This document shows, piece after piece, positions 27,479-34,164 of a stretch of DNA of 64,000 nt (position 1 is its first letter; each line of letters begins with the position of its first letter). The notes below the pieces were generated by a model, which was not told the origin of the DNA, ran no database searches, and was given only the letters and a program-made list of their open reading frames with translations. The stretch is from Escherichia coli (GTDB lineage: Bacteria; Pseudomonadota; Gammaproteobacteria; Enterobacterales; Enterobacteriaceae). The DNA lies in assembly GCF_013122565.1 (NCBI RefSeq), contig NZ_CP053258.1; one strand, 5' to 3'. The position numbers were made by a program, and so were the translations under genes.

Positions 27479-28975
27479 ATGGAAGAAAACACAAGGCAGC
27501 GTACAGAAAATTATATTTCAGCAAAAAACCAGCATCCCGCCTGGATACTCCTTGCCACTCGCCGTGCTCCACTGGTATTGAGTTGCCTGAAAACGCTTTT
27601 TGAAAAATCACATGATGGCATTCCCCTTGAGGAAGCTATTCAGTCTCTTTCCAGTATTCTCATTGAGCATGTGAGTCAGGAACAGTATGACATTAATCAG
27701 GACAATCCATTTCTTCAGGCCAGTCGTGAACTGCGGGAGTGGATTAAACGCCGTTTAATTGTCGAACGGGATGGCCGTATTTTTGCTACCGATGCGCTTG
27801 AGGTCGCGATTACGTTTGTAGAGTCTCTGGATAATCGTTTTATGACCTCTACGGCTTCCCGTTTGTCCACCGTTCAGCGAGAAATTGAAAACCTGGAAAC
27901 ACGGCTTAATCCTAACCCGGCAAACCGGGTTGCAACCTTACGTCGTCGTATTTCTGAACTGGAACGCGAACTACAGGAGGCAGAAGCCGGGCATATTGAG
28001 GTGCTGGAAACGCACCAGGCGGTTGAGCATATTCGTGATGTCTACAATTTAGCTTCCAGCCTGAGGGCTGACTTTCGTCGTGTTGAAGACTCCTGGCGTG
28101 AGGCTGACCGCGCTCTTCGCCAATCCATTATTGGTGAGCAATATCATCGTGGCGATATAGTAGAACGCCTGCTCAACGATCAGGACGCGCTGCTTAATAC
28201 GCCGGAAGGAAGAGTTTTCGACAGCTTTCAGCAACAGCTCCGTCAATCTTCTGAACTTAAAGCGATGAGTGAACGATTACGTGTGATCCTTAGCCATCCT
28301 TCTGCTTCTGATGCGCTTAACCGTCTACAGCGTCACGATCTGCGCTGGCTGGTTAAACGCTTGGTCGATGAATCGCAAACTGTCCTCCAGGCTCGCGCCC
28401 GTAGCGAGCGTGATGTCCGTGGTTTCATGAAAACCGGTCTTGCTGCTGAACATCATCGTGTTGGTCATTTGCTTAATGAGTTTCTGAATCTGGCGTTAAA
28501 ACTCGACTGGCAGCGCCAGATGATTCGTAAACAAGAGGTGCCGCTACCTGCCGTTGGTGTGGCGGTAACAGGCATCCCCGCTATTGAACGTTTACGTTTT
28601 AAAGAAGTGGATGATGAAGCAGAGCAGACGTTGGATCTCAGTAATCATGCGGCAGATTTAACGCAGATTGGCGATGATTTCTGGGATGCCTTCAATGGCC
28701 TCGATCGTGAGGTGTTGATTCAGCAGACGTTGCAGCTTCTGGCAAAAGAGAATCGCCCCGTTGGTTTAGCTGAACTGGCGGAGCTGTTGCCCCCGGCTCA
28801 CGATCTCGAAACATTCGCCGTCTGGATTGGTATGGCGAGAGAAGCGGGTATTGAGGTTATTGATTCACAACGTGAATTTGCTGAGCTTAGTGATGGGGAA
28901 GGTCGCCGCTGGCGATTTAATCTGCCCACCACTGGTCTGGAAAGTCAGGCATTAATGGATATCGATTGGGAGTAA
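27479..28975 (+). CDS. jetA: Wadjet JetA (MksF-like kleisin-type subunit)
   Basis: 498 aa, predicted coiled-coil-rich; first gene of a 498/249/1095/382-aa operon matching JetABCD size and order. Confidence 0.7.
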   Translation: MEENTRQRTENYISAKNQHPAWILLATRRAPLVLSCLKTLFEKSHDGIPLEEAIQSLSSILIEHVSQEQYDINQDNPFLQASRELREWIKRRLIVERDGRIFATDALEVAITFVESLDNRFMTSTASRLSTVQREIENLETRLNPNPANRVATLRRRISELERELQEAEAGHIEVLETHQAVEHIRDVYNLASSLRADFRRVEDSWREADRALRQSIIGEQYHRGDIVERLLNDQDALLNTPEGRVFDSFQQQLRQSSELKAMSERLRVILSHPSASDALNRLQRHDLRWLVKRLVDESQTVLQARARSERDVRGFMKTGLAAEHHRVGHLLNEFLNLALKLDWQRQMIRKQEVPLPAVGVAVTGIPAIERLRFKEVDDEAEQTLDLSNHAADLTQIGDDFWDAFNGLDREVLIQQTLQLLAKENRPVGLAELAELLPPAHDLETFAVWIGMAREAGIEVIDSQREFAELSDGEGRRWRFNLPTTGLESQALMDIDWE

Positions 28976-28980
28976 CAGGT

Positions 28981-29730
28981 ATGGCGGGCTTTTTTGACAA
29001 GCTGATTAACCGGAGCGTTACTGCAAATGCAGGCTGTGAACCAGAACCATCGGATGAGGAGGTTACCGATGAGTCGGTTGAAGATAGTTTGGCCAGTAGT
29101 GAAACGCGGACGCTACAAAAAATACGCGAAGCGACTCAGGAATTGCTCAAATACGGCCTGCTGGAAGAGGCCAGTAAGCCTAATCTGTACCGCATCGTAC
29201 TGAGCCATCCTGAAGAGGTTACTCGTATTCTGGAGCCTCTCGATCTGGATATCGGCATTGATGAGATCCGTGGCCTGCTGTATGTCAAAGTCAGGCTTGA
29301 TGAAACGCCTGCGCAGGATGAATGGGCCCACCCTCTGGTGAGACGGCAACGACTTAACCTGGAACAATCTTTATTAGTTGCCATACTGCGCCAACATTTT
29401 GTGGCCTGGGAGCAGGAAAGCGGAACCGGTGCCAGTCAGGCACAGATCGCCATCGATGATCTTCTCCCTCAACTCCAGATTTATCTTGGCGACCCGGGCA
29501 GTGAATCAAAAGAACGCACCCGATTGCTTACCCTGCTGGATCAATTAAAGGGGCATGGGCTGGTGACGTCGCCGGATGCACATGAGCGGATCGTCATCCG
29601 TCCGATCATTGCTCATCTTGCCGATCCGATCAATCTTCAGGCATTACTGGCATGGCTGCGAGAGCAAATTGCCCAGCAAACCTCTCCAAATGACGCGCCA
29701 GAAAAGGATAGCAGCGAGGAGGACGTATGA
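28981..29730 (+). CDS. jetB: Wadjet JetB (MksE-like subunit)
   Basis: 249 aa from MAGFFDKL; acidic termini; 5-bp gap from jetA; stop overlaps jetC start. Confidence 0.7.
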   Translation: MAGFFDKLINRSVTANAGCEPEPSDEEVTDESVEDSLASSETRTLQKIREATQELLKYGLLEEASKPNLYRIVLSHPEEVTRILEPLDLDIGIDEIRGLLYVKVRLDETPAQDEWAHPLVRRQRLNLEQSLLVAILRQHFVAWEQESGTGASQAQIAIDDLLPQLQIYLGDPGSESKERTRLLTLLDQLKGHGLVTSPDAHERIVIRPIIAHLADPINLQALLAWLREQIAQQTSPNDAPEKDSSEEDV

Positions 29731-33014: not shown

Positions 33015-33015
33015 G

Positions 33016-34164
33016 ATGTATTCCCCAGATGAATTGCGTGAAAAGCTTGCCCGGCAGTGGGATAGCGCAAAACTTCGGGCTGAACGCTTACTGTCCCCCG
33101 GTAACTGGCCGCTCTGCCTGCCTATTGGTAAACCTTCCACGAAAATATTTGCAGAGCAGACTCAGCGCGTTTTGCAGCACGTACAGCGATGGAGGCAAGT
33201 TGCGGTTGGGCACGTGGAATGGGAAGCGGTGAGTTTTCGGGCAAGTGATACACCAGTATTAATGCCGTTGCGCTGGATTCTGAATAGCCCTTCTGAGTGG
33301 ATCAACGCCGCTGCGGATCCGGTTGTGAGCCGGGAATTTCGCTTGCTGGAAGGAATTATTGAACAAGTTAATCCCATTTTTCACCCGCTGTTGGTAAAGC
33401 ATCGCTCTCTCTGGCGGCACAAAGATCCGCAGGGCGTCATCAGCGCCGCCACGCTGGCCTGCCGACTAGAGCCGGGCTGCGCAAAAGGGCTGCCGTTAAG
33501 ATTGCTTTCCGGGCAAGGAGTGGATACCAAATTTATCGAGAATAATATTTCGTTATTAACCCGACTGTTAGACGTGCGGTTTTCAGGAGAAGCCAGCGAG
33601 CAGGGATTAACAACTTTTCTTGATGCTTTTGATGAGTCCAGTCACTGGGTTTTAGTTGTACCATTATCACCCGGCTTACTTCCTTTTAAAAAATGCCGGG
33701 TAACAACGGCGGAACTGGCAGAAACAACATTACCCGCGTCGCAAGTGCTGGTGGTTGAAAATGAGCAGTGTCTGCATCATCTTCCAGCATTATCTGACAC
33801 TATCGCGATTTTAGGCTGTGGCCTGGACGTGCAATGGCTATCCAGTTCGGTTCTGGATGAAAAACGCGTTGCCTATTGGGGGGACATGGATAGCTGGGGA
33901 TTACTGATGCTGGCGAGAGCCAGGCGCTGTCGTCCGACCCTTGATGCCCTGCTCATGAACCGTGAGTTGTTTGAGCAGTATGCCAGTCATAGCGCCGTTC
34001 CAGAACCGGTCATAGCGAAGGAAGCGGTACCCGATGGCTTGCTTAACGAAGAGGCCGATTTTTATCGCTACTTAACCCGTTTACCGCGTGGTCGTCTGGA
34101 GCAGGAGTTTTTGCCAGTGGGGATTGCGGAAGAGGCGCTTCTCAGGTGGGGAAAAGAGAGTTAA
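33016..34164 (+). CDS. jetD: Wadjet JetD (MksG-like Toprim-domain nuclease)
   Basis: 382 aa from MYSPDELREK; Toprim-like acidic motifs VVENE and YWGDMDSWG in C-terminal half; track ORF 32980 is an upstream extension. Confidence 0.75.
   Translation: MYSPDELREKLARQWDSAKLRAERLLSPGNWPLCLPIGKPSTKIFAEQTQRVLQHVQRWRQVAVGHVEWEAVSFRASDTPVLMPLRWILNSPSEWINAAADPVVSREFRLLEGIIEQVNPIFHPLLVKHRSLWRHKDPQGVISAATLACRLEPGCAKGLPLRLLSGQGVDTKFIENNISLLTRLLDVRFSGEASEQGLTTFLDAFDESSHWVLVVPLSPGLLPFKKCRVTTAELAETTLPASQVLVVENEQCLHHLPALSDTIAILGCGLDVQWLSSSVLDEKRVAYWGDMDSWGLLMLARARRCRPTLDALLMNRELFEQYASHSAVPEPVIAKEAVPDGLLNEEADFYRYLTRLPRGRLEQEFLPVGIAEEALLRWGKES

What the first reader, a model, noticed from the sequence alone, without database searches (positions are those of the whole stretch)
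27479..34164. Wadjet-type (JetABCD) SMC anti-plasmid defence operon between glcA and pheV
Four co-directional, tightly packed genes (5-bp gap, 4-bp overlap, 1-bp gap) encode proteins of 498, 249, 1095 and 382 aa. The third is an SMC-like ATPase with Walker A GPTGSGKTT, a long coiled coil, a signature-like GGSGGEKE and Walker B ILDEAF. The fourth carries Toprim-like acidic motifs (VVENE, YWGDMD). This matches the described Wadjet/MksBEFG architecture, which restricts plasmid establishment by cleaving small circular DNA. As I recall, K-12 has the yghJ / type II secretion cluster at this position, so this is strain-specific accessory content.
Basis: partly seen in the sequence, partly recalled or inferred. 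Interest (0 to 1): 0.75.

Follow-up and report, generated by a model that had tools for sequence, protein, structure and literature searches.

The report
Known E. coli GF4-3 Wadjet operon
The four genes are a genuine Wadjet (JetABCD) anti-plasmid system, and they are the same E. coli GF4-3 operon that has already been purified, solved by cryo-EM and shown to cut small circular DNA, so the call is right but not new.

Summary
Four co-directional ORFs lie at 27479-28975, 28981-29730, 29727-33014 and 33016-34164. They encode 498, 249, 1095 and 382 aa, with a 5-bp gap, a 4-bp overlap and a 1-bp gap. All the quoted motifs are present.

PADLOC type I models JetA1, JetB1, JetC1 and JetD1 match each protein end to end (E 1e-116 to 0). 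There is no MukBEF match, and the canonical SMC model scores far below its cut-off.

The proteins are sequence-identical to the JetA, JetB, JetC and JetD chains of PDB 8as8, 8bfn and 8q72, except for the engineered E248A in JetD. They sit on a 4,821,968-bp contig, which is the published size of the E. coli GF4-3 chromosome. This is therefore the published model Wadjet: a loop-extruding SMC complex that senses small circular DNA and cleaves it with the JetD Toprim nuclease.

Compared with K-12, window 27060-34509 replaces yghD-yghJ between glcA and pheV. The full-length locus is rare, at 8 of 5426 complete E. coli genomes, and many other genomes keep only remnants.

One lead may be new. A perfect CRP-box core lies about 100 bp upstream of jetA, and it or a variant with 1-2 mismatches sits at the same place in related enterobacterial cassettes.

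Novelty: already known. Interest: low.

The parts
27288..27478 (+). Upstream non-coding leader and promoter region that travels with the operon
   Evidence: BLAST homology to the Klebsiella cassette starts at window 27288 and to the Pectobacterium cassettes at 27300; both run into jetA. The last 119 bp are 89% and 81.5% identical to those cassettes, against 80% and 75% at jetA third codon positions. AATTAT (27430-27435) is invariant in 8 cassettes; CTGGAGA is the same in 7 of 8, with one change in Enterobacter. Reading these as -10 and -35 elements is my inference. The consensus scan found no strong sigma-70 site here.
27375..27390 (.). CRP-box-like palindrome TGTGATAAAAATCACA, 89-104 bp upstream of the jetA ATG
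   Evidence: It is a perfect TGTGA-N6-TCACA core. There are 2 in the window against 0.03 expected. The core is perfect in the E. coli, K. pneumoniae, Salmonella and Phytobacter cassettes, has 1 mismatch in Pectobacterium and 2 in Enterobacter MGH24 and K. oxytoca. CRP binding was not tested.
27479..28975 (+). jetA (498 aa), the kleisin-like subunit (DUF3375)
   Evidence: PADLOC JetA1 E=4.7e-272, residues 1-498 on profile 1-498/499. PDB 8q72_E scores 1083.5 bits against a self-score of 1083.6. Exact protein WP_171460373.1 / QJU27022.1.
28981..29730 (+). jetB (249 aa), the MukE-like KITE subunit (DUF4194 / PF13835 JetB)
   Evidence: PADLOC JetB1 E=1.3e-116. PDB 8as8_C scores 534.9 bits, equal to the self-score of 534.9. 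Exact protein WP_171460374.1.
29727..33014 (+). jetC (1095 aa), the SMC/MukB-like ATPase motor with Walker A (residue 43), signature-like motif (983) and Walker B (1019)
   Evidence: PADLOC JetC1 E=0, 1626.7 bits, residues 3-1093. PDB 8as8_A scores 2445 bits, equal to the self-score of 2445.0. Pfam AAA_29 + SbcC_Walker_B. Exact protein QJU27023.1, locus tag HLY11_18110.
33016..34164 (+). jetD (382 aa), the Toprim nuclease with an N-terminal CAP-like domain; metal ligands E248, D290 and D292
   Evidence: PADLOC JetD1 E=5.1e-194. The residue-by-residue alignment to PDB 8q72_M, named 'JetD(E248A)', differs only at the engineered E248A. The E248, D290 and D292 assignment comes from Liu et al..
27060..34509 (.). 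Strain-specific segment that stands in place of the K-12 yghD-yghJ (type II secretion / SslE) block between glcA and pheV
   Evidence: BLAST of window 25000-36000 against MG1655 gives homology at 25000-27059 and 34510-36000 only. There is no second copy of the pheV 3' end in the window. No other ORF of at least 80 aa lies on the + strand in the segment; the 8 short minus-strand ORFs listed there all lie inside the jet genes.

Best explanation
This is the chromosomal type I Wadjet (JetABCD) operon of E. coli strain GF4-3, the experimentally characterised model of this defence system.

Published for these exact proteins. JetA (kleisin), JetB (KITE) and JetC (SMC ATPase) form a dimer-of-dimers motor. 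The motor loads on DNA and uses ATP to extrude it. On a small circular molecule (up to about 100 kb) extrusion runs to completion and the two motor units stall against each other. They then hold a bent, U-shaped residual DNA segment. The JetD Toprim nuclease dimer binds this segment, kinks it into a V shape and cleaves both strands, which destroys the plasmid. Linear plasmids escape, and the abstracts read imply that the chromosome escapes because of its size.

Shown here. The identity, integrity and context of the genes.

Inferred here. The operon is transcribed from a conserved promoter region about 40-110 bp upstream of jetA, possibly under cAMP-CRP control.
For: Family assignment: full-length PADLOC type I JetA1/B1/C1/D1 matches, and Pfam DUF3375, JetB, AAA_29 + SbcC_Walker_B, DUF3322 + JetD_C on the identical proteins.

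Identity with solved structures: the phmmer bit scores against PDB chains 8as8, 8bfn and 8q72 equal the self-scores for JetB and JetC. JetA is within 0.1 bit. JetD differs only by the engineered E248A.

Strain: the exact proteins lie on a 4,821,968-bp contig, the same size as the GF4-3 complete chromosome reported in File S3 of PMC8115903. Window 19727-34550 is 100% identical to an assembly of run SRR11451224.

Function (literature): the GF4-3 operon restricts circular but not linear plasmids in E. coli. The purified complex cleaves circular DNA in an ATP- and SMC-dependent manner (bioRxiv 10.1101/2022.10.04.510915). The stalled-motor structures and JetD kinking of DNA are described in 10.1101/2023.11.03.565488. 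Loop extrusion followed by cleavage was seen directly for the homologous type I complex in 10.1101/2024.02.17.580791.

Integrity: all four ORFs are open, and the catalytic and ATPase motifs are intact.

Consistent with activity: GF4-3 has no plasmid contigs.
Against: Nothing argues against the identification.

There are caveats on function in situ. The published restriction assays used arabinose-induced expression in K-12, not native expression in GF4-3. A 2023 review states that endogenous systems had been studied only in C. glutamicum.

The consensus scan found no strong sigma-70 promoter upstream of jetA. The locus is decaying in other E. coli lineages: an internal stop in jetA in FHI_NMBU_11, an IS-mediated deletion in CP52E, and jetD stubs elsewhere. 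Selection to keep it is therefore not universal.
Confidence: 0.97

Rival explanations
1. The operon is a real Wadjet but is cryptic or too weakly expressed in its native host to restrict plasmids under ordinary growth. The defence phenotype would then be a property of over-expression only.
For: The restriction assays used a Pbad-driven copy in K-12. A review notes that no endogenous enterobacterial system had been tested. No strong sigma-70 consensus lies upstream of jetA. The same locus is pseudogenised or deleted in other E. coli.
Against: All four ORFs and the catalytic motifs are intact. The upstream region is conserved across genera slightly above the level of third codon positions, and it has invariant promoter-like blocks. 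GF4-3 carries no plasmids. Cassettes at 87-90% nt identity are kept with open jetA-jetD reading frames in Klebsiella and Pectobacterium; only partial loci were fetched for the other genera.
Confidence: 0.15
2. The genes encode a chromosome-organising condensin of the MukBEF/MksBEF kind rather than a defence nuclease.
For: JetABC resembles MukBEF structurally. JetC has weak similarity to SMC_prok_B (33 bits).
Against: NCBIfam gave no MukB, MukE or MukF hit, and the SMC score is far below its cut-off of 567. A fourth gene encodes a Toprim nuclease with intact E248, D290 and D292. The identical complex cleaves plasmids in vitro. The locus is accessory, with the full-length segment in only 8 of 5426 complete E. 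coli genomes.
Confidence: 0.01
3. The system acts mainly against phages rather than plasmids.
For: Some RefSeq records name the JetD remnants 'Wadjet anti-phage system protein JetD domain-containing protein'. Circular phage genomes under 100 kb would in principle be substrates (inference).
Against: The published work on this and related systems shows restriction of plasmids, and a linear phage-derived replicon (pJAZZ/N15) escapes. GF4-3 carries four prophages, so lysogeny is evidently not blocked.
Confidence: 0.05

Closest known systems
E. coli GF4-3 JetABCD (type I Wadjet; PDB 8as8, 8bfn, 8q72, 9qxr/9qxs; Liu et al. 2022, Roisne-Hamelin et al. 2023)
   Same: All four proteins are sequence-identical; the only difference is the engineered E248A in the deposited JetD chain. 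Gene order and spacing are the same.
   Different: Nothing at the protein level. The papers I read use the operon under Pbad at a Tn7 site. A search of the 2022 preprint for 'pheV' gave no hit, and I did not find the native glcA-pheV context or the upstream region described in what I read.
Pseudomonas aeruginosa PA14 JetABCD (PDB 8dk1, 8dk2, 8dk3, 7til)
   Same: It is also a type I system, with full-length alignments: JetA 754 bits, JetB 311, JetC 1570 and JetD 500. The JetD alignment conserves VVENE and YWGDMD.
   Different: It is an orthologue from another genus, clearly diverged (about 60-65% of the self bit score). It sits in a different genomic context.
Corynebacterium glutamicum MksBEFG (MksG, PDB 8b7f)
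   Same: Same four-component logic, with a Toprim nuclease as executor (PMC10123090 listed).
   Different: Only distant similarity to JetD (E 1.5e-10, 43.8 bits).
E. coli MukBEF
   Same: An SMC-kleisin-KITE architecture that forms a dimer of dimers.
   Different: It has no nuclease subunit. No MukB, MukE or MukF family hit was found. The geometry of the dimer differs according to Liu et al.. MukBEF is core and acts on the chromosome (established knowledge), whereas this locus is accessory.

Membership tests
Wadjet type I (JetABCD) | Four co-directional genes in the order jetA-jetB-jetC-jetD forming one compact operon | tested here: met
   Coordinates and spacings of +5, -4 and +1 bp. The same order is seen in the Klebsiella and Pectobacterium loci.
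Wadjet type I (JetABCD) | JetA: kleisin-like DUF3375 protein | tested here: met
   PADLOC JetA1 PDLC00452 E=4.7e-272, full length. PF11855.
Wadjet type I (JetABCD) | JetB: MukE-like DUF4194 protein | tested here: met
   PADLOC JetB1 PDLC00480 E=1.3e-116. PF13835.
Wadjet type I (JetABCD) | JetC: SMC/MukB-like ATPase with Walker A, signature motif and Walker B separated by a long coiled coil | tested here: met
   PADLOC JetC1 PDLC00511 E=0. Motifs at residues 43, 983 and 1019. Identical to PDB 8as8_A.
Wadjet type I (JetABCD) | JetD: DUF3322 + Toprim (JetD_C) nuclease with the catalytic glutamate and DxD motif | tested here: met
   PADLOC JetD1 PDLC00532 E=5.1e-194. E248, D290 and D292 are present; their roles are taken.
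Wadjet type I (JetABCD) | Subtype I rather than II or III | tested here: met
   Every strong PADLOC hit is a JetX1 model. The only type II hit is JetC2 at E=1.2e-4.
Wadjet type I (JetABCD) | Restricts small circular plasmids; ATP-dependent cleavage of circular but not linear DNA | not testable with these tools
   Reported for the sequence-identical proteins by Liu et al. and Roisne-Hamelin et al.. Not measured at native expression in GF4-3.
MukBEF condensin | Proteins matching the MukF, MukE and MukB families; three-gene operon without a nuclease | tested here: not met
   No Muk family hit in NCBIfam at E<=1e-3. A fourth Toprim nuclease gene is present.
Canonical SMC-ScpAB | SMC protein reaching the TIGR02168/TIGR02169 cut-offs | tested here: not met
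   33.4 bits against a cut-off of 567, and 17.6 against 729.
tRNA-integrated genomic island (pheV island) | Integrase gene and a direct repeat of the tRNA 3' end at the distal boundary | tested here: not met
   No second copy of the pheV 3' 25-mer with up to 3 mismatches. No other ORF of at least 80 aa lies on the + strand in 27060-34509; the minus-strand ORFs listed there all lie inside the jet genes, and they were not scanned for an integrase. In CX12 a separate CP4-like island has inserted between jetD and pheV.

The most novel reading that the evidence does not exclude
The native promoter of this model Wadjet operon may depend on cAMP-CRP. A perfect CRP core (TGTGATAAAAATCACA, 27375-27390) lies about 60 bp upstream of the transcription start that I infer from an invariant AATTAT -10-like hexamer. 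That spacing resembles a lac-type class I promoter. The box travels with the cassette through E. coli, Klebsiella, Salmonella and Phytobacter, and is degenerate in Pectobacterium, Enterobacter and K. oxytoca. If this is real, plasmid restriction by Wadjet in enterobacteria would be switched on by carbon limitation and be low in glucose-rich laboratory media. That could explain why endogenous activity has hardly been studied. My search found no paper linking Wadjet to CRP.
Probability: 0.4. Interest if true: 0.35.

Novelty: already known. Interest (0 to 1): 0.1.

Why it matters
As a discovery it does not matter. The operon, its structure and its mechanism are published, and this window appears to be the source strain itself.

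Its value is as a positive control. A reader working from raw sequence alone identified a defence system, its motifs and its genomic context correctly.

Three by-products have modest practical use.
- The native context and upstream region of the model system, including a candidate CRP site, suggest how and when the system is expressed in its own host.
- NCBI annotations in the four records inspected split the intact jetC ORF. Protein-based defence finders run on those records would then under-count Wadjet.
- The glcA-pheV interval is a replacement hotspot. It holds T2SS/SslE in K-12, Wadjet here, and T6SS-gene remnants next to a jetD stub in another strain.

Tried and rejected
pheV-island hypothesis. 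I searched the whole window for a second copy of the pheV 3' end, allowing 3 mismatches, and found none. No further + strand ORF lies in the segment. Rejected.

Plasmid origin. Megablast of the cassette against 72,556 plasmids gave no match.

RNA elements. An Rfam gathering-threshold scan of the whole window found nothing inside 27060-34509. It found only C0719, pheV and two naRNA4 repeats elsewhere.

Sigma-70 and terminator scan. No promoter-like hit in 27120-27478, and overall counts were not above the shuffles. The only convincing hairpins are the glcA terminator (27092-27120) and the pheV terminator (34512-34487, - strand).

NCBIfam. It has no specific Jet models and returned only weak sub-threshold SMC hits, so it was uninformative for naming.

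Strain look-up in RefSeq. The GF4-3 chromosome is not in the 'E. coli genomes' collection; the best full-length match is 98.6%. Strain identity was therefore established through exact protein look-up, contig length and an SRA-derived assembly.

CRP footprint. The cassettes differ by only 10-13% in nucleotide sequence, so conservation of a 16-bp box is weak evidence. I did not run the expensive genome-wide scans to reach more distant cassettes.
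Full report
OBSERVATION. They are 27479-28975 (498 aa), 28981-29730 (249 aa), 29727-33014 (1095 aa) and 33016-34164 (382 aa). All are on the + strand and all start with ATG. The spacing is a 5-bp gap, a 4-bp overlap and a 1-bp gap. The quoted motifs are all present. The third protein has GPTGSGKTT at residue 43, GGSGGEKE at 983 and ILDEAF at 1019. The fourth has VVENE at 246 and YWGDMD at 287. Upstream lies glcA at 25384-27066. It is 99% nt identical to K-12 glcA and is annotated as glcA in strain CX12. 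Downstream lies tRNA-Phe(GAA) at 34521-34596 on the - strand, followed by yqgA and speC, as in K-12.

WHAT IT IS. PADLOC-DB models of type I Wadjet match each protein from end to end. JetA1 gives E=4.7e-272, JetB1 1.3e-116, JetC1 E=0 (1627 bits) and JetD1 5.1e-194. The only type II hit is a marginal JetC2 at 1.2e-4. The Pfam families on record for the identical proteins are DUF3375, JetB, AAA_29 + SbcC_Walker_B, and DUF3322 + JetD_C. NCBIfam gives no Muk hit, and the canonical SMC model TIGR02168 reaches 33 bits against a cut-off of 567.

IT IS THE PUBLISHED MODEL SYSTEM. A sequence search of the PDB returns chains named JetA, JetB, JetC and JetD from entries 8as8, 8bfn, 8q72 and 9qxr/9qxs, covering every residue. 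The phmmer bit scores of those matches equal the scores of the window proteins against themselves. JetC scores 2445 against 2445.0, JetB 534.9 against 534.9 and JetA 1083.5 against 1083.6. The residue-by-residue JetD alignment differs only at the engineered E248A of the chain 'JetD(E248A)'.

Exact-sequence look-up finds the four proteins as QJU27022-QJU27024 and WP_171460373-WP_171460376, with locus tag HLY11_18110 for JetC, on a contig of 4,821,968 bp. File S3 of Foster-Nyarko et al. (PMC8115903) gives 4,821,968 bp for the circularised chromosome of guinea-fowl isolate GF4-3, with zero plasmid contigs; File S2 lists the isolate as phylogroup B1. Window 19727-34550 is 100% identical, with no mismatch over 14,824 bp, to an assembly of run SRR11451224. 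Liu et al. state that they recovered their E. coli JetABCD operon from strain GF4-3. The window is therefore, to all appearances, the GF4-3 chromosome, and the finding is the archetypal E. coli Wadjet.

HOW IT WORKS (from the literature, for these exact proteins). The GF4-3 operon was expressed from Pbad in K-12. There it destabilises circular plasmids, while the linear plasmid pJAZZ escapes. [quoted passage not shown] E248, D290 and D292 of JetD correspond to the Mg2+ ligands of topoisomerase VI-A. The upper size limit for restriction is about 100 kb (bioRxiv 10.1101/2022.10.04.510915). [quoted passage not shown] Artificial circularisation makes linear DNA cleavable (10.1101/2023.11.03.565488). 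Single-molecule work on the homologous type I complex shows symmetric loop extrusion of a whole 44-kb plasmid, followed by stalling and then cleavage (10.1101/2024.02.17.580791).

What I showed here is only that the genes are intact, that they carry the catalytic residues, and that they are identical to the studied proteins. Activity at native expression in GF4-3 has not been reported in the papers I read. A 2023 review says endogenous systems had been examined only in C. glutamicum. The absence of plasmids from GF4-3 is consistent with activity but does not prove it.

GENOMIC CONTEXT. Homology to MG1655 ends at window 27059, seven bases before the glcA stop codon, and resumes at 34510, eleven bases beyond the 3' end of pheV. 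The Wadjet segment has no integrase. It has no further + strand ORF of 80 aa or more, and the minus-strand ORFs listed there all lie inside the jet genes. There is no repeat of the pheV 3' end. It is therefore not a classical tRNA island. In strain CX12 a CP4-like island with CbtA/YafW, RadC and antirestriction genes has inserted between jetD and pheV. This shows that island integration happens on the pheV side of a Wadjet that was already there.

The locus is rare and often decayed. Only 8 of 5426 complete E. coli genomes hold the whole segment, at 98.4-98.6% nt identity. About 20 more keep a jetD 3' stub next to pheV; in the one such record I inspected (ECNB21-M121) it is preceded by type VI secretion gene remnants. 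Two genomes keep only a jetA 5' stub next to an ISEc52. In FHI_NMBU_11 jetA has an internal stop.

The same cassette occurs at 87-90% nt identity in Klebsiella pneumoniae and Pectobacterium. The shared stretch runs from about 180-190 bp upstream of jetA to the jetD stop codon, window 27288/27300 to 34156/34164. JetA proteins of the same 90%-identity cluster, with the same upstream region, were also found in Salmonella, Enterobacter, Phytobacter and K. oxytoca. The neighbours differ each time and are often defence- or toxin-related: TacAT and Fic, or AbiEi and an AlbA/Schlafen-like ATPase. No near-identical copy is on any of 72,556 plasmids.

A POSSIBLE NEW DETAIL. The upstream region carries TGTGATAAAAATCACA at 27375-27390, a perfect CRP-box core (TGTGA-N6-TCACA). 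The window holds two such cores against 0.03 expected. The other lies just upstream of a sugar-porter gene. From its position and size I take that gene to be galP, a known CRP target; this is my own knowledge, not a tool result.

In eight cassettes a box of this kind sits at the same position. The core is perfect in both E. coli copies, K. pneumoniae, Salmonella and Phytobacter. It has one mismatch in Pectobacterium and two each in Enterobacter MGH24 and K. oxytoca. Downstream, the block AATTAT is invariant, and CTGGAGA is the same in 7 of 8 (one change in Enterobacter). If AATTAT (27430-27435) is read as a -10 element, the box is centred near -60. That is the geometry of a class I CRP-dependent promoter, but this reading is an inference.

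The last 119 bp upstream are a little more conserved than jetA third codon positions: 89% against 80% for Klebsiella, and 81.5% against 75% for Pectobacterium. With such closely related cassettes this is weak evidence. A full-text search found no paper linking Wadjet to CRP. I rate CRP control of the native operon at about 0.4.

ANNOTATION ARTEFACT. In RefSeq strains CX12 and FHI_NMBU_11, and in GenBank Klebsiella assemblies, jetC is annotated in two pieces. One is a 52-codon pseudogene called 'ATP-binding protein'. The other is a 448-aa 'SbcC/MukB-like Walker B domain-containing protein'. In each case the 1095- or 1096-codon ORF is uninterrupted. The same two product names appear under the match in all 8 full-length E. 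coli records. Protein-based defence finders run on these records would miss JetC.

VERDICT. The system is already known; it is the structurally solved reference Wadjet.

Noticed in passing
window 27375-27390 (with 27407-27412 and 27430-27435): A perfect CRP-box core, TGTGATAAAAATCACA, lies about 100 bp upstream of jetA (2 in the window against 0.03 expected). It keeps its position in eight enterobacterial Wadjet cassettes, with 0-2 core mismatches. An invariant AATTAT and a nearly invariant CTGGAGA lie downstream of it. This may be a class I cAMP-CRP-dependent promoter. A full-text search found no paper linking Wadjet to CRP.
   Followed up: partly
L001 8661-11948; L012 5662-8949; L006 8249-11539; L007 2909-6199: NCBI annotations split jetC into a 52-codon pseudogene ('ATP-binding protein') and a 448-aa 'SbcC/MukB-like Walker B' CDS, although the 1095- or 1096-codon ORF is uninterrupted. 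The same pair of product names appears in all 8 full-length E. coli records. Protein-based tools would probably under-call Wadjet on these records.
   Followed up: partly
window 33567-34520 compared with L002 8001-8977; L003 6413-6734: About 20 complete E. coli genomes keep only the 3' part of jetD next to pheV; in the one inspected (L002) it is preceded by type VI secretion gene remnants and an IS1. Two others keep only a jetA 5' stub next to ISEc52. In strain FHI_NMBU_11 jetA has an internal stop. The glcA-pheV interval is a replacement and decay hotspot.
   Followed up: partly
L001 13478-19456: In strain CX12 a CP4-like island (CbtA/YafW toxin-antitoxin, RadC, antirestriction protein, DUF4942) lies between jetD and pheV. 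Homology to the window ends 23 bp inside the pheV 3' end, as expected for an att duplication.
   Followed up: no
window 56821-56836: The second perfect CRP core, TGTGAAGCAAATCACA, lies about 50 bp upstream of the sugar-porter ORF at 55363-56769 (- strand). That ORF is probably galP, and the site probably the known galP CRP site. It serves as an internal positive control for the motif.
   Followed up: partly
window 25084-25305 (-), 46429-46498 and 46515-46585 (+): Rfam matches: C0719 sRNA between glcB and glcA (299 bits), and two naRNA4 (REP-type) elements. These look like ordinary E. coli core features.
   Followed up: no
window 27044-27244 (-): A 66-codon ORF was called by the gene caller in the identical Logan contig (L011 7318-7518). 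It runs through the glcA terminator hairpin (27092-27120) and overlaps the end of glcA. It has no Pfam hit and is probably spurious.
   Followed up: no
L008 12785-13497, L005 13132-13497 and L005 2616-3391: The same Wadjet cassette sits beside other defence or toxin genes in other genera. In Pectobacterium these are an AlbA/Schlafen-like ATPase and AbiEi. In Klebsiella they are a Fic protein and a TacA-acetyltransferase pair. This suggests it moves between defence islands as a unit made of the leader plus the four genes.
   Followed up: no
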